Shown here: piece by piece, positions 23,982 to 34,214 of the stretch
Position numbering within the stretch: the stretch's first letter is position 1
How the letters are laid out: each line of letters opens with the position of its first letter
From: a virus
Lineage: Duplodnaviria; Heunggongvirae; Uroviricota; Caudoviricetes
Direction: 5' to 3' (one strand)
IMG/VR virus record: IMGVR_UViG_3300020735_000006
Coordinates: 1 to 35,949 of that record
Length of the DNA: 35,949 bases
Notes under the pieces: generated by a model
Databases searched by the model: none
Told to the model about the DNA's origin: nothing
What the model saw: the letters and a program-made list of their open reading frames with translations, nothing else
Made by a program: the position numbers and the translations under genes

Positions 23982-24431
23982 ATGTCAATTACATTAGAAA
24001 ACTTAAAATCGGCATTTGCAGGTGAGTCGCAAGCATTTACCAAGTATATGTATTTTGCTAAAATCGCACGTGCAGAAGGTAATGAAGATATTGCTCTACA
24101 TTTTGAACATACTGCCGGTCAAGAACTATTACATGCACACGGACATTTAGAATTATTAGTAAGCAAGCCAACTACAGCTGAATGTTTGCAAATGGCAATT
24201 GATGGCGAAACGGAAGAGTTTACTCATATGTACCCAACAATGCTTAAAGAAGCTGTTGAAGAAGGTAATATTGTTGCTGCACTCGAAGCACAAACACAAA
24301 TTGACGAAAGCAAAGAACACGCCGACGAATTTACCACTATCCTTGCCAAAGCAGAAAAGCGTTTTGCTGCATTAGCAAAAGTTGAGAAGCGTCATGCAGA
24401 AGCGTATCAATCAAAATTGGAGACACTATAA
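23982..24431 (+). CDS. rbr: Rubrerythrin (ferritin-like domain only)
   Basis: NLKSAFAGESQAFTKYMYFAKIA, ExxH di-iron motifs (ELLH, EKRH), AIDGETEEFTHMYP. Confidence 0.9.
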   Translation: MSITLENLKSAFAGESQAFTKYMYFAKIARAEGNEDIALHFEHTAGQELLHAHGHLELLVSKPTTAECLQMAIDGETEEFTHMYPTMLKEAVEEGNIVAALEAQTQIDESKEHADEFTTILAKAEKRFAALAKVEKRHAEAYQSKLETL

Positions 24432-25929: not shown

Positions 25930-26048
25930 TTATAGTAAAGTACTTTGGATGACCATCTGGCGAGAGAAGCAGGCCGCATCGACCGCGGCTGACAAGTACA
26001 TAACGCACGAAAAAGTGTAAAATGTATACCCAGAGTACTTTACTATAA
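25930..26048 (+). repeat. Inverted-repeat-boxed RNA cassette, divergent outlier (element 0)
   Basis: TTATAGTAAAGTACTTTGG/CCAGAGTACTTTACTATAA, 19 bp with one G-U. Confidence 0.7.
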
Positions 26049-26250: not shown

Positions 26251-27108
26251 ATGCCGAGTAGATTACTCTTTGTTGGATGTAACAAAATAATAGATTCAGT
26301 TATTAGTTTACAATTTGACAAATACCTAACACCTAAACCTAGTAAGACTATAATTTACCTAGGATCGCGTGAACATGGGGTACGTAACGATATTGATTTG
26401 CTTGGGTTATACCAACAGTACAACATAGATACCACAAATTTTAGTGTAGTACACGATTTAGATTTATTAGATACATACAAGAATATACGTCTAATTAATT
26501 TATTTCAACCATGGATTTTACAACAACTTTTAAAATTGATGGCAGTTGACACATGCAACGATAATAAAATATTAATTCAAGACAGTGATATTATATTGTT
26601 GAAACCTTATGTTTATTTTGAAAACAATATACCTGTACCATTTAAATTTGAGAATATGTCACACTCTGCAGGATATTACAAATACGTTGAAACATTTACT
26701 GGACAGTTAAGACAAACCGAAGATTGTTTTGTTACAGACTTTATGCCGTTTCGTAAAAGCGACTGGCAATCTCTAAAACAACACATTGAGCAATCATACA
26801 GAACAGATTGGTTAACAGCAATAACAACTCAATTTAAAAAGGATCACCCATATCCAAAAGGTAATATAGCGTTTAGTGAGTATGAATTGTTAGGTAATTG
26901 GTTGTTAATCAATTATCCCGATCTTAAAACAGTACAACAGTATCATTATCCGTTAACAGCAGAACGTACTAGATTTATAAAGAACAAAAATTTTGAGTTA
27001 AGTGATTTTAAAAAAGAATCATTTGACAGTATTGCTATAAAACTATATAATGATGACATAAGACTTAGTCTTGATGATGTAGATTATATAGTAAAGTATT
27101 TTACATGA
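26251..27108 (+). CDS. Glycosyltransferase-like protein (GT-A DxD; DUF6492-like)
   Basis: WILQQLLKL, ILIQDSDIILLKP, FSEYELLGNW. Confidence 0.6.
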   Translation: MPSRLLFVGCNKIIDSVISLQFDKYLTPKPSKTIIYLGSREHGVRNDIDLLGLYQQYNIDTTNFSVVHDLDLLDTYKNIRLINLFQPWILQQLLKLMAVDTCNDNKILIQDSDIILLKPYVYFENNIPVPFKFENMSHSAGYYKYVETFTGQLRQTEDCFVTDFMPFRKSDWQSLKQHIEQSYRTDWLTAITTQFKKDHPYPKGNIAFSEYELLGNWLLINYPDLKTVQQYHYPLTAERTRFIKNKNFELSDFKKESFDSIAIKLYNDDIRLSLDDVDYIVKYFT

Positions 27109-27198: not shown

Positions 27199-27759
27199 AT
27201 GAAATATTTGTATTATGTGTTTTACTTGCCAATGGCATTAGTTGATATATTGTTATCATATGTTATATCGTATCCACTTGCACCACTGTTGCCATTGTTT
27301 GCAACAGAACAAGACGGCCCACTAGATAATGGTGGTCATACAGGATTAGGACCAAGATTACCTAAGTGGCTTAATTGGTTTCAAACGCCCGACAATAGCT
27401 TGTATGGTGATGCCGGATTTATTGCTATTAATGGCCAAAGCTATTTGTCACAAGTTAAATGGTTATGGCGCAATCCGGCATATTCGTTTGCTATGAGTAC
27501 TGTAACAAGTCCTTATACTACAAGTTTTAGTGGAGATCCAACTATCAAGGATAATGATAATGCCCGAGCTGGCTGGTGCGTAGCCCATGTAAATGATTTA
27601 TTTTTACTTAGATTAGTTTTACCAATTGGATTTAGTCGTTGTATCTATTGTAACTTTGGCTGGAACATTATGGCCATTGTAGATCCTAATGTACAACCGA
27701 AGCCAACAACATGGCAAGCAACATTTGTATTCAGTCCTAGATTATCGGGATTTAGGTAA
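27199..27759 (+). CDS. Hypothetical phage protein
   Basis: AAGGA RBS; WFQTPDNSLYGD and WLWRNPAY motifs. Confidence 0.65.
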   Translation: MKYLYYVFYLPMALVDILLSYVISYPLAPLLPLFATEQDGPLDNGGHTGLGPRLPKWLNWFQTPDNSLYGDAGFIAINGQSYLSQVKWLWRNPAYSFAMSTVTSPYTTSFSGDPTIKDNDNARAGWCVAHVNDLFLLRLVLPIGFSRCIYCNFGWNIMAIVDPNVQPKPTTWQATFVFSPRLSGFR

Positions 27760-28117: not shown

Positions 28118-28194
28118 TGCGGGAGAGTAAAACGGTTTAAACGTCAGTCTCATAAGCTGAAGACATCAGGTTCGACTCCTGCTTCCCGCAACCA
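28118..28194 (+). tRNA. tRNA-Met(CAT), initiator-like
   Basis: TGCGGGA/TCCCGCA ACCA resembles fMet ends but lacks three G-C anticodon-stem pairs. Confidence 0.8.
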
Positions 28195-28248: not shown

Positions 28249-28322
28249 GCCTCGGTAGTTTAAAAGTAGAACACCCTCCTTACAAGTGGAAGACGGCGGA
28301 GCATTACCGCAACGAGGTACCA
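28249..28322 (+). tRNA. tRNA-Val(TAC), non-canonical T-loop AGCATTA
   Basis: Loop CTTACAA, ACCA. Confidence 0.8.
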
Positions 28323-28863: not shown

Positions 28864-29268
28864 ATGTCGTATTATGACAAGTTGTGTGAAGTAGACGTAT
28901 TAAAAGGTAAAACATTATCTTCTGTTCATAGAGATGGTGACGAGGAAATCTTGTTTGAAACAGTGGATGGTGACGTCTATCGAATGTTTCACAGCCAAGA
29001 TTGTTGTGAGTCGGTGTATATTGAAAGTATTGTTGGCGATTTACAAGACTTAGTAGGTGAAGAAATCTTAGTAGCTGAAGCAAATGAAAATTTGTTTGAT
29101 ATATTGAAAAATGCAGGTAAAGAAGAAGATGACTGTGATGAATCATACACTTGGACATTCTACAAGTTTGCTACACGTAAAGGTTATGTAGATATTCGTT
29201 GGTATGGATCATCAAATGGTTATTACTCAGAGTCGGTAGACTTTGTAAAAGTACAAGGAGAAGTATAA
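28864..29268 (+). CDS. Hypothetical acidic phage protein
   Basis: AAGGAG RBS; MFHSQDCCESVYIE and IRWYGSSNGYYSESV motifs. Confidence 0.75.
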   Translation: MSYYDKLCEVDVLKGKTLSSVHRDGDEEILFETVDGDVYRMFHSQDCCESVYIESIVGDLQDLVGEEILVAEANENLFDILKNAGKEEDDCDESYTWTFYKFATRKGYVDIRWYGSSNGYYSESVDFVKVQGEV

Positions 29269-29474
29269 TGAAAGCAAGAAACATATATGCAGTATTAGCC
29301 AGTAAACGGAAGGCGGGCTCGCACCGCAAGAGCAATAAAGCTCTACGTAAATTAACTAAACAGCGGGATCGTAGCTCAAAGGCAGAGCAAGAGGCTTTTA
29401 ACTTCGAGGTTGTCAGTTCAAGTCTGACCGGTCCCACCATATTAAAACATATTTGCAACCACATGGGAGTGTAA
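29268..29474 (+). CDS. Small Lys/Arg-rich protein whose frame runs through tRNA-Lys (start trimmed from 29199)
   Basis: AAGGAG RBS 8 nt upstream, TAATG coupling; first stop is TAA 29472-74 inside repeat element 1. Confidence 0.55.
   Translation: MKARNIYAVLASKRKAGSHRKSNKALRKLTKQRDRSSKAEQEAFNFEVVSSSLTGPTILKHICNHMGV
29365..29439 (+). tRNA. tRNA-Lys(TTT)
   Basis: Loop CTTTTAA, ACCA (shared with repeat arm). Confidence 0.9.
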
Positions 29475-29503
29475 AGTCCGTGGGGAGTGTGTTTTAATAT
29501 GGT
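29436..29503 (+). repeat. Inverted-repeat cassette element 1 (68 nt)
   Basis: ACCATATTAAAACATA/TGTGTTTTAATATGGT; 63/68 identical to 33611-33678. Confidence 0.9.
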
Positions 29504-29517
29504 ACAAGACGAACAAA

Positions 29518-29592
29518 GGGGGATGGGCAGGGTACCCGGATTTGCTTTGCAAGCAGATAGCCTGATCGGTTCGAGTCCGATATTCTCCACCA
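29518..29592 (+). tRNA. tRNA-Ala(TGC), second copy
   Basis: G3-U70, loop TTTGCAA, ACCA; D-arm weak. Confidence 0.78.
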
Positions 29593-29596
29593 ATTA

Positions 29597-29616
29597 CTTG
29601 TATGTTTTAATATGGT
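29597..29616 (+). repeat. Extra right arm of the repeat family closing the tRNA-Ala cassette
   Basis: CTTGTATGTTTTAATATGGT complements ACCATATTAAAACATA(29436-51)+CAAG(29505-08). Confidence 0.85.
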
Positions 29617-29656
29617 AGAGCGGCGGAGTAAGCATAAATAACTTAAAGGATATATT

Positions 29657-30268
29657 ATGCTTATTTGTAAATTTTGTAATAAAGAATGTAAGTCGCCGAA
29701 CTCCTGGAGAAACCACGAAAGATTGTGCCACTCAAATCCAAACAGACAAATATCAAGTTTCACTTGGTATAATTACGAAAATAAAGTTGCGTGGAACAAA
29801 GGAAAAACAAAAGCAGAATTCCCTTCACTGGCACGACCTAACCAAATTGGGAAAAAGTTTGGATCTGCACTTACTGGGCACACTGAGGAAACTAAGAAAA
29901 AAATTAGTGCTAAGTTATCAATAAACAATAAGGGAGGAAGATCCAAGTGGTACGAAGTTGCTGGACAAAAAGTACAAGGTACTTGGGAAAGAAATGTTGC
30001 CTTAAAGTTTGAAGAGTTGCACATTAAGTGGGAAAAACTTAAAACAAATAGAGATACACTTGAGTATGTAATGGACGGAAAAACTCGATCTTATACTCCA
30101 GATTTTTTTCTCCCTGATAATAATCTTTATTTAGAAATTAAAGGACATTGGTGGGGCAACGATAGAGAAAAAATGGATATTGTATTAAAAACATATCCTG
30201 ATATAAAGATTATCATCGTTGAAAAAGATGATTACGAAAAGATTTTGCGAGGTGAGCTAGTTTGGTAA
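29657..30268 (+). CDS. Putative free-standing homing endonuclease: zinc finger + NUMOD3-like + PD-(D/E)xK domain
   Basis: CKFC...HERLC, HTEETKKKIS, YTPDFFLPDNNLYLEIKG. Confidence 0.7.
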   Translation: MLICKFCNKECKSPNSWRNHERLCHSNPNRQISSFTWYNYENKVAWNKGKTKAEFPSLARPNQIGKKFGSALTGHTEETKKKISAKLSINNKGGRSKWYEVAGQKVQGTWERNVALKFEELHIKWEKLKTNRDTLEYVMDGKTRSYTPDFFLPDNNLYLEIKGHWWGNDREKMDIVLKTYPDIKIIIVEKDDYEKILRGELVW

Positions 30269-30325
30269 TTCCAGCGTATGCCTGAAGAGCATAAGAACTA
30301 GGTTCGATTCCTAGACCTCGCACCA
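30247..30325 (+). tRNA. tRNA-Phe(GAA), overlaps last codons of endonuclease ORF
   Basis: GCGAGGT/ACCTCGC, loop CTGAAGA, ACCA. Confidence 0.85.
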
Positions 30326-30334
30326 AAGTTCTAT

Positions 30335-30408
30335 TGAGGTATAGTGTAATGGTAACACTACGCACTTTGACTGCGTCATTCTAGGTTCAAGTCCTGGTAC
30401 CTCTACCA
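30335..30408 (+). tRNA. tRNA-Gln(TTG)
   Basis: 1-72 mismatch, loop CTTTGAC, CCA. Confidence 0.88.
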
Positions 30409-30409
30409 A

Positions 30410-31540
30410 CTAAGATATTATATCAGTGAAATATTTGACTATCTCTGGAAAAGTTTCTTTCCAGTTTAATTTACGTTTTTTATCATGAAACTCGATATAT
30501 TGAATAAACGCATTAAATTTATCTTTGTCGAACGGTCTCATTCTATTAACTAGCCAGGGATCGTTTGCGTATTTTGTTTTAATTTCTTCCATCAGATTTG
30601 GGGGAATCGACGAGGTGTTAATAATTCCATTTGTATCAAACCCCTGTAAGAATCTTAGGTCATTACTACTCTTGCGCGGGGGGAAAATTGTTTTTTCCCA
30701 TTCCATATATTGATCGTAATAAAAAATGTTCAATGGGTTAATAGCAGAACTAATTTCCAATTTGATGTCTGGGATGTTTAAATTGATAATATATTTAATA
30801 TTATTTTCAACTTGATCCCACTGCAAAGGCCACCGTAAATAATTAAAATGTTCGCCAATGCCATCAATACTGAAACTAATTTGTAAGGTTTTTAATTGTT
30901 TCCATAATTCAATAGTTTCGGCGTCAGGTTTTTGACTACCGTTAGTGACATATCTCACTGATACTTGATCTAATGGTTTAGATTTTTGAATATCTTTAAG
31001 CGTTTGTTTATGGAATTCACTAAGTAGAGGCTCTCCTCCTAAGAATACTACTAAGTTAACATCATTTAATGAAACAAACTTAAATATGTTGTTATATCGA
31101 TTTGTTGCGTTTACATCTGCAATTATATCGATTTGTTTATTAATTACACTTTTGTTTACTGCATTACTAGAACTATATTTTTGCCATGTTGTACTATTAT
31201 AATCGCCACATATTAAACAGGCAGCATTACAATTAGTATCAATTTGAAATTCCAAGGATGTAACTTTGTTGATTTCGAGGACATTAGTGATCCCAACTAT
31301 AGATGGTTTCTTTTCGGCGATTTGTCTGGGTGATATAACATTACGACTTTCTTTTTCTTGGCAAAAATTGCATTCGGGTACCCAATCGTCGATTTGTCCT
31401 AACCAATTTTGATATTCATTGAATTCATCTTGTGTACTACTCATAATATTAAATTTCTTAGTAATCCAACAACACGGTGCATAATCATTGTATTCAACAC
31501 GTGCTTGATTTTTTAGATATAAACAAAAAGGTTTTTTCAT
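30410..31540 (-). CDS. Radical SAM protein (start trimmed from 31576)
   Basis: CNAACLIC CxxxCxxC, FLGGEPLL, YVTNGS, FSIDGIG. Confidence 0.85.
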   Translation of the reverse strand: MKKPFCLYLKNQARVEYNDYAPCCWITKKFNIMSSTQDEFNEYQNWLGQIDDWVPECNFCQEKESRNVISPRQIAEKKPSIVGITNVLEINKVTSLEFQIDTNCNAACLICGDYNSTTWQKYSSSNAVNKSVINKQIDIIADVNATNRYNNIFKFVSLNDVNLVVFLGGEPLLSEFHKQTLKDIQKSKPLDQVSVRYVTNGSQKPDAETIELWKQLKTLQISFSIDGIGEHFNYLRWPLQWDQVENNIKYIINLNIPDIKLEISSAINPLNIFYYDQYMEWEKTIFPPRKSSNDLRFLQGFDTNGIINTSSIPPNLMEEIKTKYANDPWLVNRMRPFDKDKFNAFIQYIEFHDKKRKLNWKETFPEIVKYFTDIIS

Positions 31541-31641
31541 GCTATTATTTATAGAAACATTTTGTTGTATAAACAATTAACCGTGTCAACTTAGCTGTAG
31601 CTTAAGGCGTTAATATAGTATGCAAACTACAGGAGACTATT

Positions 31642-31773
31642 ATGTCACCAATGCTACTTCAAGTTAAAGAACTATTAAGTCGTAATTTAGATGCTTTTGA
31701 AATTGCTCACCGCTTACACATCAATATCGATAGTGTAAATTCTGCGATTGAGTTACTAACCCGAATAAATTAA
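31642..31773 (+). CDS. Small hypothetical protein, HTH-like, 43 aa (not in ORF track)
   Basis: AGGAG RBS; LDAFEIAHRLHINIDSVNSAIELL. Confidence 0.55.
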   Translation: MSPMLLQVKELLSRNLDAFEIAHRLHINIDSVNSAIELLTRIN

Positions 31774-31774
31774 C

Positions 31775-31849
31775 CCGCCCATAGTATAATGGAGAATACA
31801 GAAGGCTTCTACCCTTTTGATGTGAGTTCGATTCTTGCTGGGCGGACCA
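31775..31849 (+). tRNA. tRNA-Arg(TCT)
   Basis: Loop CTTCTAC, ACCA. Confidence 0.9.
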
Positions 31850-31855
31850 AACAAT

Positions 31856-31931
31856 GGTGACATTAGTGTAGAGGTTCGCACCCGACTCTGTGAAAGTCGT
31901 AGTATGGGATCGTTCCCCATATGTTACCCCA
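31856..31931 (+). tRNA. tRNA-His(GTG), T-loop ATCGTTC
   Basis: G-1:C73 8-bp acceptor, loop CTGTGAA. Confidence 0.85.
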
Positions 31932-31937
31932 AACAAT

Positions 31938-32029
31938 GCCAGCGAGACTTGGAAGTCAGAGAGGTCTTATACACCTTTTAGCGCCAGATTAGCGTTCTTG
32001 AGAAGGTTCGATCCCTTCCGCTGGTACCA
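31938..32029 (+). tRNA. Atypical tRNA with TAT anticodon (Ile), short D-arm and long variable arm
   Basis: GCCAGCG/CGCTGGT ACCA, loop CTTATAC, T-arm GAAGG-TTCGATC-CCTTC. Confidence 0.7.
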
Positions 32030-32036
32030 AAAATAC

Positions 32037-32126
32037 GGAAGAATGTCTGAGTCTGGCTTAAGGAAACAGTCTTGAAAACTGTCGGCTGTAAAAGGTCCGT
32101 GGGTTCGAATCCCACTTCTTCCTCCA
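32037..32126 (+). tRNA. tRNA-Ser(TGA)
   Basis: Loop CTTGAAA, variable arm, CCA. Confidence 0.9.
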
Positions 32127-32133
32127 ATACTAT

Positions 32134-32211
32134 GCAACGGTGGCAGAGTGGCCCAATGCACCAGCCTGCAAAGCTGAAACCCCGTGTGTTCGAATCACAC
32201 CCGTTGCTCCA
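32134..32211 (+). tRNA. tRNA-Cys(GCA)
   Basis: Loop CTGCAAA, TCCA. Confidence 0.88.
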
Positions 32212-32244
32212 AATAGTGTTGCAAAAATACAACGGTTGAAATAG

Positions 32245-32273
32245 TTGTCCGTTAATTCCCAATATTGTATAAT
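32245..32273 (+). promoter_or_regulatory. Sigma70 promoter P1 of repeat array
   Basis: TTGTCC-17 nt-TATAAT. Confidence 0.75.
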
Positions 32274-32294
32274 AGTTGTATATTAAGTAATACA

Positions 32295-32309
32295 GCTCAT
32301 TAACAATTT
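32295..32309 (+). promoter_or_regulatory. rrn-type boxA-like antitermination site 1
   Basis: GCTCATTAACAATTT versus E. coli rrn GCTCTTTAACAATTT. Confidence 0.6.
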
Positions 32310-32315
32310 ATTGGC

Positions 32316-32418
32316 ACTATATTAAATCAAACTTTGAAAATCCGTAGGTGATCGGGTAGTTGCTTGTATTACTATGAGTAATAGGTTGCTCCGACAGGTT
32401 AGTATGTTTTAATATGGT
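32316..32418 (+). repeat. Inverted-repeat cassette element 3 (degenerate)
   Basis: ACTATATTAAATCAAACT/AGTATGTTTTAATATGGT. Confidence 0.7.
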
Positions 32419-32446
32419 TGTCCAATAAAGATCATAATGCTATAAT
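32418..32446 (+). promoter_or_regulatory. Sigma70 promoter P2 of repeat array (extended -10)
   Basis: TTGTCC-17 nt-TGC-preceded TATAAT. Confidence 0.78.
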
Positions 32447-32464
32447 ACTTGTATAGTAATTAAA

Positions 32465-32479
32465 GTTCATTAACAATTT
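32465..32479 (+). promoter_or_regulatory. boxA-like site 2
   Basis: GTTCATTAACAATTT at similar distance from promoter as site 1. Confidence 0.6.
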
Positions 32480-32507
32480 GAGTAGAATATAAGCACCCTG
32501 GGAAGGG

Positions 32508-32604
32508 TTACTATATTGAAATGTATTAGTCTACGTCAGTACTAGGACTTCTGTGCGATAAGCGGCTACCTAGATAAGCCCACTAGTGCGTTTCAATATA
32601 GTAA
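32508..32604 (+). repeat. Inverted-repeat cassette element 4
   Basis: TTACTATATTGAAATGTATTAG/CTAGTGCGTTTCAATATAGTAA, 22 bp with 3 G-U. Confidence 0.9.
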
Positions 32605-32764
32605 GGTTGGCGGGCAGAGGCCCGGATTGAGTGGATGGACCTTTATCTGGTCCTACCCGCAAGAGATAGTCTGGTGGTCGCAGAGCAAGTACGCGGAGAT
32701 GCAGTCAAGAACGTTGCGTCGACGCAACGGAGGAGATAGTACCAGGGAAAGCGAAAACAACATA

Positions 32765-32848
32765 CTATATTAAAGCATACTCTGCTGAAGCTGATGCCCG
32801 GGCTTGGTTCCCGATGGTAATCGTCGGAAGGAGTGTGTTTTACGATAG
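32765..32848 (+). repeat. Inverted-repeat cassette element 5
   Basis: CTATATTAAAGCATACTC/GAGTGTGTTTTACGATAG, 16 of 18 paired. Confidence 0.75.
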
Positions 32849-32929
32849 AACTAAGTTGCTAGAAGCTTAGTCTGACGGCTGGTTAGGGATACACGGTGTC
32901 CGCGGTATAAGTGAACCAGAACTTCGAGT

Positions 32930-33028
32930 GCTGATAGGTAAGCTATCTACTATATTGAAATACTTTGCAACGGCAGCTGATAGGTAAGCTATCTACTATA
33001 TTGAAATACTTTGCAACGGCAGCTGATA
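32930..33028 (+). repeat. Perfect 46-bp tandem duplication containing a left repeat arm
   Basis: GCTGATAGGTAAGCTATCTACTATATTGAAATACTTTGCAACGGCA twice plus GCTGATA. Confidence 0.95.
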
Positions 33029-33110
33029 ATGCCAGATAGACGAACAGCGTATAAGCGGTGCACCGCCCAATTCTTAGTAGGTCTATGAAGTAGAGTGTTT
33101 CAATATAGTA
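32994..33110 (+). repeat. Inverted-repeat cassette element 6
   Basis: TACTATATTGAAATACTTT/AGAGTGTTTCAATATAGTA, 19 bp with 2 G-U. Confidence 0.9.
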
Positions 33111-33244
33111 TCCGTTCGTATATGGTAGTATATACAGTTGGGTGAAAGGTGGAACTACTCGAAGGTGCGGCCGCACTAGTTGAGACTATCACTAAGTAGC
33201 TTTTGGACAACTGTGGATAGGTTCGATTCCTATTACGGAGACTA
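33110..33244 (+). ncRNA. tRNA-like RNA with 67-nt insert replacing anticodon loop
   Basis: TCCGT/ACGGA acceptor core, D-like GTATAT/ATATAC, AGTTG/CAACT stem, T-arm ATAGG-TTCGATT-CCTAT. Confidence 0.65.
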
Positions 33245-33338
33245 TATTGAAATGCATTTATATGCTAAACGGTACAGCCGACCTGTTAAAGGGTTAGATG
33301 TAAGGTTCGAGTCCTTACTAAGTGTGTTTCAATATGGT
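33241..33338 (+). repeat. Inverted-repeat cassette element 7, enclosing an Asn-like pseudo-tRNA (33254-33325)
   Basis: 20-bp stem with 4 G-U; inside D-loop AAACGGTAC, CTGTTAA-containing irregular loop, T-arm GTAAGG-TTCGAGT-CCTTAC. Confidence 0.88.
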
Positions 33339-33451
33339 GACAGTATGAGCGTGGTACGATCCTCGAGGTAAGTGCTCGGACATACGCTATTATTTACAGG
33401 GATTAATTACCCCTTAGTAGTAGAGATCCAGGTTCGATTCCTGGTCATTAT
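33334..33451 (+). ncRNA. tRNA-like RNA with enlarged D-arm region; acceptor built from repeat arms
   Basis: ATGGTGA/TCATTAT, T-arm CCAGG-TTCGATT-CCTGG. Confidence 0.6.
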
Positions 33452-33553
33452 ATTGAAACATATTAAATTCTAGACACACTAGAGCACTGAGGTCGTGTGT
33501 TATGCCCCCAAAGGCGAGCTTAGAGACTTCTGCATAGTATGTTTCAATATGGT
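33447..33553 (+). repeat. Inverted-repeat cassette element 8
   Basis: ATTATATTGAAACATATTA/TAGTATGTTTCAATATGGT, 19 bp with 3 G-U. Confidence 0.9.
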
Positions 33554-33610
33554 GAGTCGGACAAACGTGTATGGACAACCGGGCAACTGGGGCTAATCCT
33601 ACACACCGAC

Positions 33611-33678
33611 ACCATATTAAAACACATTTGCAACCACATGGGAGTGCAATATCCGCGGGGAGTGTGTTTTAATATGGT
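33611..33678 (+). repeat. Inverted-repeat cassette element 9 (copy of element 1)
   Basis: ACCATATTAAAACACA/TGTGTTTTAATATGGT perfect 16 bp. Confidence 0.92.
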
Positions 33679-33803
33679 AAGTAACAGTAGATCGGGAGGG
33701 AGGTCGTTGCTAGTCACAATGGACCCCAAACAGAGTCGCTGTGAAGTCAGACAATAGAGAAGGACAACTCCGTGACTGGACTACTCCGAATCCACGATAC
33801 GAC

Positions 33804-33931
33804 GCCATATTGAAATGTATTTGACGGGAGTCGCTTGCCAAGAGCCGCAAGTGGGCCACCCGGTGGAGCTGTCACTCTGCGAAAAGCCACTATGACAGTA
33901 GTGGAACATATTAAGTACGTTTCAATATGGT
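33804..33931 (+). repeat. Inverted-repeat cassette element 10
   Basis: GCCATATTGAAATGTATTT/AAGTACGTTTCAATATGGT, 19 bp with 3 G-U. Confidence 0.9.
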
Positions 33932-34052
33932 TGTGTTCGCAAGCTAAGTAGCGTAGTGGTACGCCAGCTGGTAATTTCCAGTCCTTGCCCTTAGAGAGTA
34001 AACGCGATGCTCTCGTAAAGTGAGGTAGGTTCGATTCCTACTACAGCCACCA
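33929..34052 (+). ncRNA. 124-nt tRNA-like RNA with 7-bp acceptor, T-arm and ACCA but rebuilt D/anticodon region
   Basis: GGTTGTG/TACAGCC ACCA; GTAGG-TTCGATT-CCTAC; GCAAG/CTTGC domain with two hairpins; GAGAGTA/TGCTCTC arm. Confidence 0.7.
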
Positions 34053-34058
34053 AAATTT

Positions 34059-34133
34059 GGTCTCATGGTATAATGGTTATTACACCGGCCTGTCACGTCG
34101 GATACAGGGGTTCAATTCCCCTTGAGACCGCCA
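34059..34133 (+). tRNA. tRNA-Asp(GTC)
   Basis: Loop CTGTCAC, GCCA. Confidence 0.92.
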
Positions 34134-34139
34134 AATTAT

Positions 34140-34214
34140 ACTCTGTTCGTCTATCGGTTAGGACCCAAGGTTTTCAACCTTGTAAGAGGAGTTCAACTCT
34201 CCTACAGAGTACCA
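34140..34214 (+). tRNA. tRNA-Glu(TTC)
   Basis: Loop TTTTCAA, ACCA. Confidence 0.9.

What the first reader, a model, noticed from the sequence alone, without database searches (positions are those of the whole stretch)
32316..34052. Array of alternating inverted repeats boxing diverse structured RNAs: candidate new phage ncRNA cassette system
Seen: eight left/right arm pairs here (elements 3-10, plus outliers at 25930 and 29436-29616), consensus ACYATATTRAAAYRYAYTY and complement, form 16-22 bp stems around unique payloads of roughly 30-90 nt, separated by unique structured linkers of about 55-160 nt. Deviations are mostly G-U on the + strand, and one position covaries perfectly within pairs (A-U in elements 1, 3, 5, 9; G-C in 4, 6, 7, 8, 10), so pairing is selected, most likely at RNA level. 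No credible CDS over about 1.7 kb. It does not match CRISPR (direct repeats, fixed spacers), TIGR or REP layouts as I know them. Inference: a polycistronic precursor cut at a shared stem (RNase III-like or phage nuclease) to release a library of small RNAs (decoys, antitoxins, guides, tRNA mimics), and/or a recombination-built cassette array.
Basis: partly seen in the sequence, partly recalled or inferred. Interest (0 to 1): 0.95.

Follow-up and report, generated by a model that had tools for sequence, protein, structure and literature searches.

The report
Swappable clamped small-RNA cassettes among phage tRNAs
In the tRNA island of an uncultured jumbo phage, eight hairpins that all share one conserved 17-base-pair stem but carry unrelated inner sequences alternate with tRNA-like RNAs behind ribosomal-RNA-style promoter/antiterminator leaders; the same stem recurs in many distant phages, where the inner parts are swapped like cassettes, which points to an undescribed kind of phage small-RNA system.

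Summary
Twenty arm copies (2.4 expected) alternate strictly L/R at 32317-33930, plus an outlier at 29437-29615. They form 8+1 hairpins with 17-24 bp stems.

The same stem, 5'-CCAUAUUGAAACACAUU..AGUGUGUUUCAAUAUGG-3', closes 152 units in 71 tRNA-bearing viral loci. Pairing is kept on the tRNA-sense strand only. There are double-sided compensatory changes and a conserved U.G.

Found here:
1. The arm's CCA is the 3' CCA of the upstream tRNA in 64 units, and its terminal GG starts the next tRNA in 25.
2. Close relatives keep the linkers and arms (about 99%) but carry unrelated payloads. Near-identical payloads also sit in unrelated flanks. The nearest relative lacks units 3-8.
3. Sigma70-like promoters followed by an rrn-type boxA (15/16 to E. 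coli) precede the units here and in 61 modules elsewhere.
4. Several linkers and about 9% of payloads are tRNA-like.

Best reading: clamped small-RNA cassettes made from rrn-like, antiterminated tRNA operons. The stem acts as an RNA processing or stabilising helix, and its DNA serves as shared homology for exchange. Transcription, cleavage and payload function are inferred, not shown.

Rfam 15 and the papers searched hold no match. Two earlier AI notes of this scan reported the same stem family on other DNA.

The parts
32245..32273 (+). Promoter-like site 1 (TTGTCC-17-TATAAT)
   Evidence: 10 of 12 matches. About 99% conserved in relative G006, where the -35 reads TTGACG.
32295..32310 (+). boxA-like antiterminator element 1 plus spacer (GCUCAUUA-ACAAUUUA)
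   Evidence: 15 of 16 identical to the E. coli rrn boxA-spacer given in PMC2724277 Table 1.
32317..32417 (+). Hairpin unit 1 (arms 32317-32333 / 32401-32417, 67-nt payload)
   Evidence: The payload is replaced by an unrelated T-arm-bearing sequence in G006.
32418..32446 (+). Promoter-like site 2 (TTGTCC-17-TATAAT, with TG extension)
   Evidence: The K1 linker has 1 mismatch in 93 nt against G006.
32465..32480 (+). boxA-like element 2 (GUUCAUUA-ACAAUUUG)
32511..32601 (+). Hairpin unit 2
   Evidence: The payload is replaced in G006.
32602..32764 (+). Linker K2, a GC-rich structured RNA of 163 nt
   Evidence: fold -51 kcal/mol. No Rfam hit and no homologue in the fetched loci.
32765..32848 (+). 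Hairpin unit 3 (degenerate outer stem)
32849..32949 (+). Linker K3
   Evidence: A 91% homologue over 98 nt lies in locus L118.
32930..33021 (+). Perfect 46-nt tandem duplication that creates a second left arm
   Evidence: D13
32996..33108 (+). Hairpin unit 4. Payload positions 33035-33054 are 19/20 antisense to 34136-34155, which is the 5' part of tRNA-Glu.
   Evidence: (I11)
33109..33241 (+). Linker K4, a tRNA-like RNA (acceptor UCCGU/ACGGA, T-arm GGTTCGATTCC, large insert)
   Evidence: Relaxed ARAGORN calls it a tRNA with a 60-nt insert.
33242..33337 (+). Hairpin unit 5. The payload is a mini tRNA-like RNA whose T-arm abuts the right arm.
   Evidence: A homologue lies in the distant complete phage genome G001, with a compensatory change in the T stem.
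33338..33447 (+). Linker K5, a tRNA-like cloverleaf with T-arm
33448..33552 (+). Hairpin unit 6
33553..33611 (+). Linker K6, a short hairpin RNA ending in ACCA
   Evidence: An 84% homologue lies in L033.
33612..33677 (+). Hairpin unit 7, a 93% paralogue of the unit at 29437
   Evidence: (D11). The same family occurs in L012 and L106 in unrelated flanks.
33678..33804 (+). Linker K7, a structured RNA ending in GCCA
33805..33930 (+). Hairpin unit 8 (92-nt payload)
33929..34052 (+). Linker K8, a tRNA-like RNA. It has a 7-bp acceptor stem starting on the arm's GG, D-like and anticodon-like hairpins (6-nt loop), a long extra arm, a T-arm and ACCA.
   Evidence: Not called by Rfam tRNA or ARAGORN.
29437..29502 (+). 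Outlying hairpin unit whose first three bases are the CCA of tRNA-Lys(UUU) (29365-29439)
   Evidence: A syntenic unit follows tRNA-Lys in G006.
29518..29615 (+). tRNA-Ala-like RNA (23 bits, below the Rfam cut-off) followed by an orphan right arm (29600-29615). The orphan arm can pair with the left arm at 29437.
29657..30268 (+). ORF with a dsRNA-type zinc finger (zf-C2H2_jaz) and a phage endonuclease I domain. It is absent at this position in G006. It is a possible free-standing homing or structure-specific nuclease, not an obligate partner.

Best explanation
The stretch is a non-coding operon inside the phage tRNA island. It is built from two kinds of modules that alternate.

Module 1: clamped cassettes. 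A nearly universal 17-18 bp stem (5'-CCAUAUUGAAACACAUU / AGUGUGUUUCAAUAUGG-3') closes a variable inner RNA of about 30-90 nt.

Module 2: tRNA-shaped or other structured RNAs, which in relatives are ordinary tRNAs.

Proposed mechanism:
- Transcription starts at sigma70-type promoters.
- Each promoter is followed by an rrn-type boxA. This should recruit the host NusB/NusE-based antitermination complex, so that the long untranslated RNA escapes Rho.
- Each left arm pairs with the next right arm as it emerges.
- The arms overlap the CCA of the upstream tRNA and G+1/G+2 of the downstream one. tRNA 5' and 3' maturation (RNase P, 3' trimming) and/or host RNase III cutting in the roughly 20-bp helix would therefore free each clamped RNA. 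The helix then works like the leader-trailer helices of rRNA precursors.
- At the DNA level the shared arms act as portable homology. Through them, inner sequences and whole units are exchanged, duplicated and lost between positions and between very different phages.

Shown: the structure, its selection on the tRNA-sense strand, the fusion to tRNA ends, cassette exchange, the promoter/boxA leaders, and conservation of some payload families.

Inferred: transcription itself, Nus-dependent antitermination, the nuclease(s) involved, and what the payload RNAs do. My guess is that they form a fast-turning-over set of trans-acting RNAs, some of them tRNA mimics.
For: Arms and stems:
- Arm statistics and alternation.
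- 17-24 bp stems.
- 152 units in 71 tRNA-bearing viral loci share one consensus.
- Stem positions 1-17 pair in about 97% of 141 distinct units on the tRNA-sense strand. Double-sided changes occur at positions 7, 8 and 11-14, and U.G is conserved at position 16. No unit is inverted relative to the tRNAs.
- RNAalifold recovers an 18-bp stem, with 13 pairs showing compensatory changes.

Fusion to tRNA ends:
- 64 of 152 left arms start exactly on a tRNA CCA, and 25 right arms overlap the next tRNA by GG.
- The upstream tRNA is biased: Glu(UUC) 23/51, Lys(UUU) 14/38, Leu(UAG) 12/42.

Cassette exchange:
- Payloads are replaced inside frames that are 87-100% identical.
- Payloads that are 75-100% identical sit in unrelated flanks; the random baseline is 0.58.
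- A whole-unit indel maps between two direct right arms.
- In G006 the leaders and arms are about 99% identical while the tRNAs are 75-82% identical. Payloads 1 and 2 are replaced and units 3-8 are absent.

Leaders:
- Promoters.
- boxA is 15/16 identical to E. coli rrn boxA-spacer.
- 71 sense against 15 antisense boxA-like hits in 625 kb.
- 61 promoter+boxA modules were found. In 43 of the 50 with annotated downstream features, a unit is the first or second element.
- The rrn analogy (boxA, then a conserved 5' strand of a leader-trailer helix carrying the RNase III site) comes from PMC10250234.

Payload-level constraint:
- The P5 family is shared with a phage whose terminase is 35% identical, with an A-U to G-C compensatory change in the T stem.
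- 13 of 139 payloads carry tRNA T-arm matches, against 2-4 in shuffles.

Phage specificity:
- Only two tRNA-array contigs in 185,579 cellular genomes hold true units.
- All three units of a complete 214-kb genome lie in its tRNA island.
Against:
- Payloads taken alone are only weakly more structured than shuffles (mean z -0.46), so many could be neutral loops.
- P4 looks like a patchwork of tRNA fragments, which fits debris as well as function.
- No phage RNase III, Ro60 or RtcB was found, so any dedicated nuclease is unknown.
- A stable helix that contains the RNase P leader and the CCA should slow tRNA maturation rather than help it.
- The strong sequence conservation of the stem, as opposed to structure alone, is not explained by RNase III. 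It suggests an unidentified sequence-specific partner or constant homogenisation by recombination.
- The loci were chosen for holding units, so the association figures lack an unbiased background.
Confidence: 0.55

Rival explanations
1. Stem-only, cis-acting element. The hairpins are punctuation or processing signals of the tRNA operon. They could be RNase III sites, folding insulators between tRNAs, or a boxC-like partner of the boxA antitermination complex. The loops are neutral filler that turns over by recombination and slippage at the repeated arms, and no payload acts in trans.
For: - Payload structure is weak (mean z -0.46).
- Payload P4 is made of tRNA fragments.
- Payloads are replaced freely without change in the frame.
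- Units sit right behind promoter-boxA leaders, where rrn operons have boxC and the leader-trailer helix.
- The stem is about 20 bp long, which suits RNase III (this point rests on my own knowledge).
Against: - Some payload families are conserved between phages with terminases only about 35% identical, and in unrelated flanks, with compensatory changes.
- T-arms are enriched 4-6 fold in payloads.
- Neutral loops would be expected to shrink, yet the median unit is 85 nt.
- An array of eight units with no tRNA between them, as here, is hard to explain as tRNA punctuation.
Confidence: 0.25
2. DNA-level mobile or recombination element. The arms are terminal inverted repeats, or an attC-like single-strand hairpin site. 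A dedicated recombinase or nuclease recognises them (for example the zinc-finger/endonuclease I protein at 29657-30268) and inserts or exchanges cassettes. The RNA structure is incidental.
For: - Cassette exchange and unit gain and loss occur exactly at the arms.
- The hairpin length range of 57-175 nt, with a variable centre, resembles attC sites (from my own knowledge).
- The nuclease gene lies next to an orphan arm and is absent at that site in G006.
- Homologues of the nuclease lie in 10 of 71 loci.
Against: - All units keep one orientation relative to transcription, and wobble pairs exist only on the sense strand.
- The complete genome G001 has units but no homologue of the nuclease.
- There are no target-site duplications.
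- Crossover points are spread through the arms rather than fixed.
- The arm core does not match the attC GTTRRRY box.
- In integrons the variable hairpin travels with its cassette, whereas here linkers stay and hairpin interiors change.
- The promoter/boxA context argues for an RNA role.
Confidence: 0.1
3. Regulator of tRNA maturation. By pairing the CCA of tRNA-Glu, tRNA-Lys or tRNA-Leu with the leader and first bases of the next tRNA, the hairpin delays or gates release of particular phage tRNAs. This could set up a reserve against anticodon nucleases. The payload would tune stability.
For: - The arms fuse exactly to the CCA and to G+1 G+2.
- There is a strong bias to Glu(UUC), Lys(UUU) and Leu(UAG). 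Lys(UUU) is a classic anticodon-nuclease target (from my own knowledge).
Against: - In this window seven of eight units have no canonical tRNA on either side.
- About 58% of units elsewhere do not start on a called tRNA.
- The tRNA bias may partly reflect shared ancestry of the promoter-tRNA-unit modules.
Confidence: 0.07
4. CRISPR mimic. The left arm contains AUUGAAAC, the usual 8-nt 5' tag of Cas6-processed crRNAs, and the right arm starts GUUUCAAU like many CRISPR repeats. The units would act as crRNA or repeat decoys (RNA anti-CRISPRs), or as Cas-independent guide-like RNAs processed by tRNA enzymes.
For: Only the sequence resemblance seen in the consensus, together with unique inner sequences between repeats.
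Against: - Position 8 of the arm is G in only 58% of units.
- The tag would be locked in a helix.
- The repeats are inverted, not direct.
- Payloads are 23-140 nt long, and some are conserved, structured and tRNA-like.
- The resemblance was spotted after the fact.
Confidence: 0.03

Closest known systems
Leader-trailer (processing) helices and boxB/boxA/boxC leaders of bacterial rRNA operons
   Same: - A sigma70 promoter is followed by a small hairpin and a boxA (15/16 identical here).
- A highly conserved sequence shortly downstream forms the 5' strand of a long helix. That helix brackets a stable RNA and still shows Watson-Crick/wobble covariation.
- tRNAs lie in the same transcript.
- The helix is of RNase III size.
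   Different: - The bracketed RNAs are 30-90 nt, unrelated to each other and exchangeable, rather than rRNA.
- The same helix sequence is reused many times per operon and across phage families.
- The helix ends are fused to the tRNA CCA and G+1.
- RNase III cleavage is untested.
Phage T4 small stable RNAs (species 1/rnaC and species 2/rnaD) in the T4 tRNA cluster (from my own knowledge)
   Same: - They are non-tRNA stable RNAs encoded among phage tRNA genes.
- They are co-transcribed with the tRNAs, have tRNA-like 3' portions and are matured by tRNA-processing enzymes.
- Linkers K4, K5 and K8 look like this.
   Different: - T4 has no shared clamp helix, no cassette exchange and no boxA leader that I know of.
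- Sequence homology was not tested.
Integron attC sites and gene cassettes
   Same: - Hairpin-forming imperfect inverted repeats with conserved ends and a highly variable centre of similar length.
- Arrays whose content differs between close relatives.
   Different: - No integrase is present.
- The core does not match GTTRRRY.
- The variable hairpin interior is what gets exchanged, while the intervening 'cassette' stays.
- The element is strand-specific in the sense of transcription.
- The cargo is RNA of under 170 nt, not ORFs.
CRISPR arrays and phage RNA anti-CRISPRs (solitary repeat units)
   Same: - Repeats alternate with unique sequences that differ between close relatives.
- The array is transcribed as one precursor and cut into small RNAs.
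- The arm contains an AUUGAAAC-like tag.
   Different: - The repeats are inverted and pair with each other.
- Inner lengths are not fixed.
- Inner sequences are partly conserved, structured RNAs.
- No cas genes are present.
tRNA punctuation, and tRNA-linked small RNAs such as the gammaherpesvirus MHV68 tRNA-miRNA (TMER) units (from my own knowledge)
   Same: tRNA or tRNA-like modules directly abut hairpin RNAs, so tRNA-processing enzymes can define the ends of the hairpin RNA.
   Different: - This is a bacterial virus, with no miRNA machinery.
- It has a universal conserved stem, cassette exchange and a boxA leader.
Other long-stem 'clamped' RNAs in phage tRNA islands noted by this scan (G000 at about 44.85 kb; the Pseudomonas-phage family of note e1-1876998)
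   Same: A long closing helix around a structured, often tRNA-derived RNA, wedged between tRNA genes.
   Different: - The stem sequences are different.
- Those are single conserved genes, not a multi-copy family with swapped interiors.

Membership tests
CRISPR array | Direct repeats of constant length separated by unique spacers of nearly constant length | tested here: not met
   The repeats alternate in inverted orientation and pair with each other. Inner lengths are 23-140 nt.
CRISPR array | Associated cas genes or a matching host repeat | not tested
   No cas-like domain appears among the ORFs scanned near the array. A search for host repeats was not possible.
Integron attC / cassette array | R''/R' core sites RYYYAAC...GTTRRRY | tested here: not met
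   The arm core is TTRAAAC...GTTTYAA. Position 4 of the R' box is T, not a purine.
Integron attC / cassette array | The cassette (cargo plus its own attC) moves as a unit, and an IntI integrase is present | tested here: not met
   Hairpin interiors change while the neighbouring linkers stay. No recombinase domain was found in the ORFs scanned, but whole genomes were not scanned for integrases.
MITE / TIR transposon | Terminal inverted repeats around a conserved interior, with target-site duplications | tested here: not met
   161 interiors fall into 115 clusters. The flanks are tRNA ends that form part of the arms, and there are no duplications.
Any Rfam 15 family (including tRNA, YrlA, GOLLD, ROOL) | A covariance-model hit at or near the gathering score | tested here: not met
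   No hit with E up to 1 anywhere in 32212-34052.
Bacterial Y RNA (YrlA) / Ro60 system | A Ro60 (TROVE) protein encoded by the genome, and a Ro-binding stem with a tRNA-like module | tested here: inconclusive
   There is no TROVE hit in the 108-kb fragment, which is only 29% of the genome. There is no YrlA hit in the array. Some payloads are tRNA-like.
rrn-type antitermination leader | boxA consensus UGCUCUUUA(ACAAUUUA) downstream of a promoter | tested here: met
   32295-32310 matches 15/16 and 32465-32480 matches 13/16, each about 20 nt after a promoter-like site. 61 such modules occur in relatives.
rrn-type antitermination leader | Binding of NusB/NusE and read-through of Rho terminators | not testable with these tools
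   This needs a biochemical or reporter assay.
RNase III processing helix | About two turns of mostly uninterrupted dsRNA | tested here: met
   17-24 bp stems.
RNase III processing helix | Staggered cleavage by RNase III in vivo or in vitro | not testable with these tools
No phage-encoded RNase III was found.
Canonical tRNA (for linkers K4, K5, K8) | A cloverleaf with a 7-nt anticodon loop, scoring above the tRNA model cut-off | tested here: not met
   Not called by ARAGORN at default settings or by Rfam. They are called only with relaxed settings, as tRNAs with 30-60-nt inserts. The acceptor stem and T-arm are present.

The most novel reading that the evidence does not exclude
The units form a pan-phage 'RNA cassette' system. 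A common pool of well over a hundred small RNAs each fits one universal 17-bp clamp. They are expressed from rRNA-style antiterminated promoters, released by the host's tRNA and rRNA processing enzymes, and shuffled between unrelated phages through the clamp sequence. The hypervariable inner RNAs (tRNA mimics, decoys or aptamers) would serve as a rapidly renewable counter-defence or host-takeover repertoire. That would make it an RNA-level counterpart of integron cassettes or CRISPR arrays on the phage side.
Probability: 0.25. Interest if true: 0.9.

Novelty: categorically new. Interest (0 to 1): 0.8.

Why it matters
Phage tRNA islands are usually read as codon-supply or anti-anticodon-nuclease devices. 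This finding shows that they also hold a large, conserved and mobile class of non-tRNA RNAs that neither annotation pipelines nor Rfam detect.

Three points are directly testable and would interest RNA and phage biologists:
1. Phages appear to copy the rRNA-operon expression logic (promoter, boxA, closing helix) to make small stable RNAs.
2. One universal helix is shared by phages whose terminases are only about 30-35% identical. This implies either an unknown sequence-specific partner or cross-family cassette traffic.
3. Inner sequences turn over much faster than the surrounding frame, which is the signature of conflict loci.

If the payloads act in trans, they are a new reservoir of natural RNA tools such as tRNA mimics and decoys. 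The clamp plus tRNA ends would also be a ready-made natural scaffold for expressing small RNAs in bacteria.

If the loops prove to be neutral, the finding shrinks to a new family of processing hairpins ('new variant of a known kind').

Tried and rejected
- Rfam at E up to 1 gave nothing in the array.
- blastn of the array against 50,697 GenBank phages gave no match.
No expression or end-mapping test was therefore possible, and read laying was not used.
- Searches for RNase III, TROVE/Ro60 and RtcB in G000, and for RNase III in five larger array-bearing records including one complete genome, all found nothing. For the fragments this is not conclusive.
- The zinc-finger/endonuclease I ORF was tested as an obligate partner and rejected. 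It occurs in 10 of 71 loci and 2 of 5 large records, and it is absent from the complete G001.
- Payloads as antisense RNAs were tested against the phage genome and against tRNAs. Only P4 versus tRNA-Glu stood out (19/20), and there was no enrichment overall.
- A host origin for the hairpin was tested. Of 11 hits in 185,579 cellular genomes, 9 are single chance matches in coding DNA and 2 are tRNA-array contigs that look like mis-binned phage.
- The alternative pairing register (a right arm with the next left arm, boxing the linkers) was considered. It is sterically possible and is continuous for K4-K6. It was rejected as the basic unit because isolated units are always L..R in the tRNA direction, the array starts with L and ends with R, and the MFE uses L(n):R(n).
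- The CRISPR-tag resemblance (AUUGAAAC) was noted but not tested against host repeats.

Full report
CONTEXT
The window is the first 36 kb of a 108-kb IMG/VR viral contig that CheckV rates 29% complete, so it comes from a jumbo phage. It encodes a tail sheath, tail tube and large terminase. The nearest cultured relatives by terminase are PA5oct-, Phosso- and GAP32-type jumbo myoviruses, at 54% amino-acid identity or less. From 23.7 kb onward all tRNA genes lie on the + strand. ARAGORN and Rfam adds a few more. The finding lies inside this tRNA island, between tRNA-Cys (32134-32211) and tRNA-Asp (34059-34133).

THE OBSERVATION
The arm motif occurs 21 times in the window against 2.4 expected. Twenty copies lie in 29437-33930 and left and right copies alternate strictly. 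Each left arm folds with the next right arm into a 17-24 bp helix. Folding the whole array uses that register for 7 of 8 units. No ORF in the stretch exceeds 77 aa, and Rfam gives no hit at E up to 1. A perfect 46-nt tandem duplication (32930-33021) accounts for the supernumerary left arm.

WHAT THE LINKERS ARE
- K0 and K1 are not RNA genes. Each holds a TTGTCC-17-TATAAT promoter-like site, then a small hairpin, then GCUCAUUAACAAUUUA or GUUCAUUAACAAUUUG.
- The E. coli rrn boxA-spacer is UGCUCUUUA-ACAAUUUA (PMC2724277, Table 1). The first copy therefore matches 15 of 16 positions.
- K4, K5 and K8 fold as cloverleaves with an acceptor stem and a canonical T-arm (GGTTCGATTCC), but with large inserts or an abnormal anticodon loop. 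Standard tRNA finders miss them, and relaxed ARAGORN calls K4 and K5 tRNAs with 60- and 30-nt inserts.
- K3 and K6 have homologues in other loci.
- Payload P5 is itself a mini tRNA-like RNA whose T-arm stacks on the clamp.

THE FAMILY
Of these, 71 hold tRNAs and together carry 152 units.
- The consensus is 5'-CCAUAUUGAAACACAUU[payload]AGUGUGUUUCAAUAUGG-3'. The median unit is 85 nt (range 57-175).
- In 64 units the first three bases are the CCA of an ARAGORN tRNA. In 25 units the last two G are +1/+2 of the next tRNA.
- The upstream tRNA is strongly biased to Glu(UUC), Lys(UUU) and Leu(UAG). In this window the unit at 29437 sits on tRNA-Lys(UUU).
- Over 141 distinct units, stem positions 1-17 pair in about 97% of cases when read on the tRNA-sense strand. 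Double-sided substitutions occur at positions 7, 8 and 11-14.
- Position 16 is U.G in 72% of units, which would be C.A on the other strand. No unit shows the C.A signature of an inverted copy.
- RNAalifold on 37 diverse units independently predicts an 18-bp stem, with compensatory changes in 13 pairs.
- The element is phage-specific. A stringent scan of one genome for each of 185,579 prokaryotic species gave 11 hits. Only two are real arrays, and both are tRNA-array contigs that look like phage DNA binned into MAGs.
- Carriers are very diverse, with terminases only 29-36% identical to this phage's.
- In a complete 214-kb genome all three units lie in the tRNA island.

CASSETTE BEHAVIOUR
- The 161 payloads fall into 115 similarity clusters.
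- In two phages that are 97% identical (L054 and L111), the linkers and arms are 99-100% identical, yet three payloads are replaced by unrelated sequences of different length.
- Across all orthologous unit pairs there are at least six independent replacements inside flanks that are 87-100% identical.
- Conversely, more than 20 payload pairs that are 75-100% identical lie in flanks no more alike than random. The random 70-nt identity is 0.58 +/- 0.04. Within this window the units at 29437 and 33612 are 93% identical in unrelated contexts.
- A whole-unit presence/absence difference between L063 and L068 maps between two direct right arms. Crossover points in payload swaps lie at various places within the arms. 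This fits homology-driven exchange or template switching better than a fixed cut site.
- The nearest relative of this very locus (G006) has the same tRNAs at 75-82% identity, while the promoter/boxA leaders and arms are about 99% identical. Payloads 1 and 2 are unrelated to ours, and about 190 nt stand where the window has units 3-8.
- G006 also lacks the tRNA-Ala-like RNA, the orphan right arm and the zinc-finger/endonuclease I gene that follow the tRNA-Lys unit here.

THE LEADER
- boxA-like elements are oriented with the tRNAs (71 sense, 15 antisense in 625 kb).
- 61 of them have a sigma70-like promoter within 90 nt upstream. Of the 50 with annotated downstream features, 43 have a hairpin unit as the first or second element, typically in the order promoter, small hairpin, boxA, tRNA-Glu/Leu/Gln, unit.
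- 24% of units but only 3% of tRNAs lie directly behind such a leader.
- In enterobacterial rrn operons a nearly invariant boxC lies 18-19 nt after boxA. It forms the 5' strand of the leader-trailer helix, overlaps the RNase III site and still covaries through Watson-Crick/wobble exchange (PMC10250234). The left arm here starts 10 and 34 nt after the 12-nt boxA core.
- This supports, by analogy only, a model in which the Nus-modified polymerase transcribes the untranslated array without Rho termination and the clamp forms like a leader-trailer helix.

ARE PAYLOADS FUNCTIONAL?
For:
- Families are conserved across very distant phages in unrelated flanks. The P5 family shows an A-U to G-C compensatory change in its T stem, and another family shows GCCG...CGGC changing to GCUG...CAGC.
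- tRNA T-arm matches occur in 13 of 139 payloads, against 2-4 in shuffles.

Against:
- Payloads alone are barely more stable than shuffles (mean z -0.46).
- P4 looks like stitched tRNA fragments, including a 19/20 antisense copy of the start of the phage tRNA-Glu.
- Antisense matches to tRNAs are not enriched overall.

PROTEIN PARTNERS
- No RNase III, Ro60 or RtcB is encoded in the fragment.
- No RNase III is encoded in five larger array-bearing records, one of them complete.
- The ORF at 29657-30268 combines a dsRNA-type zinc finger with an endonuclease I domain. It is an attractive candidate, but it occurs in only a minority of carriers and is absent from the complete genome.
- It therefore looks like a free-standing mobile nuclease gene of the kind common in phage tRNA regions. 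Host enzymes remain the default for processing.

VERDICT
The best-supported reading is a set of clamped small-RNA cassettes expressed from rrn-like, boxA-led tRNA operons. The stem is selected at the RNA level, its ends are defined by tRNA ends, and its DNA serves as the handle for cassette exchange.

Transcription, the nuclease and the payload function are inferred. The main rival is that only the stem matters and the loops are neutral.

I found no description of such elements in Rfam 15 or in the papers searched. Two earlier AI notes of this scan (e1-1678868, e1-1851729) reported the same stem family on other DNA with similar conclusions. I reproduced their main claims independently. I added the boxA/promoter leader, the comparison with the direct relative of this locus, the bias in flanking tRNAs, the breadth by terminase, and the tRNA-like nature of the linkers.

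Noticed in passing
window 29657-30268 (+): A 203-aa ORF with an N-terminal zf-C2H2_jaz (dsRNA-binding type zinc finger) and a C-terminal phage endonuclease I domain. It lies right after an orphan right arm. It is absent at this site in relative G006 and present in only some array-bearing phages, so it is probably a free-standing mobile nuclease.
   Followed up: partly
window 31938-32029 (+), and many related loci: ARAGORN calls a 92-95-nt 'tRNA-Ile(tat)' with a long extra arm, here and in many related tRNA islands. The Rfam tRNA model does not hit it in this window. A class-II-like tRNA with a UAU anticodon would be unusual.
   Followed up: no
window 33035-33054 versus 34136-34155: Payload P4 holds a 19/20 antisense copy of the 4 nt before tRNA-Glu(UUC) plus its first 16 nt. 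Its start also resembles the 5' end of tRNA-Cys, so the payload looks like a patchwork of tRNA fragments.
   Followed up: partly
window 32930-33021: A perfect 46-nt tandem duplication spans the end of linker K3, a left arm and the start of payload 4. This indicates recent slippage or unequal exchange, or possibly an assembly artefact.
   Followed up: no
window 25930-26048: A 19-nt inverted repeat (95% complementary) encloses 81 nt and ends 5 nt before tRNA-Tyr. It has the same clamp architecture, but its arms differ from the consensus at 4 of 16 positions.
   Followed up: no
G000 about 44.83-45.10 kb (beyond the window): Another RNA of about 220 nt is closed by a different perfect 19-20 bp stem (ACTAATAAGTTTGGGCATA...) and wedged between two tRNAs. 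It was already noted by the scan (e1-1847917). It shows that clamped RNAs between tRNAs are a general theme in this phage.
   Followed up: partly
window 23982-24431, 26251-27108, 27199-27759, 28864-29268, 30410-31576(-): Protein genes are interspersed in the tRNA island: a rubrerythrin, DUF6492, DUF7338, DUF7448, and a radical-SAM protein on the opposite strand.
   Followed up: no
window 28119-28190 and 28249-28319: Two Rfam tRNA hits (40.9 and 29.9 bits) that ARAGORN did not call. They may be further tRNA genes or pseudo-tRNAs.
   Followed up: no
L139 (G006) 1686-2110 versus window 32212-32620: The promoter/boxA leader region is about 99% identical between two phages whose adjacent tRNA genes are only 75-82% identical. 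This suggests recent transfer or homogenisation of the leader-plus-arm module itself.
   Followed up: partly
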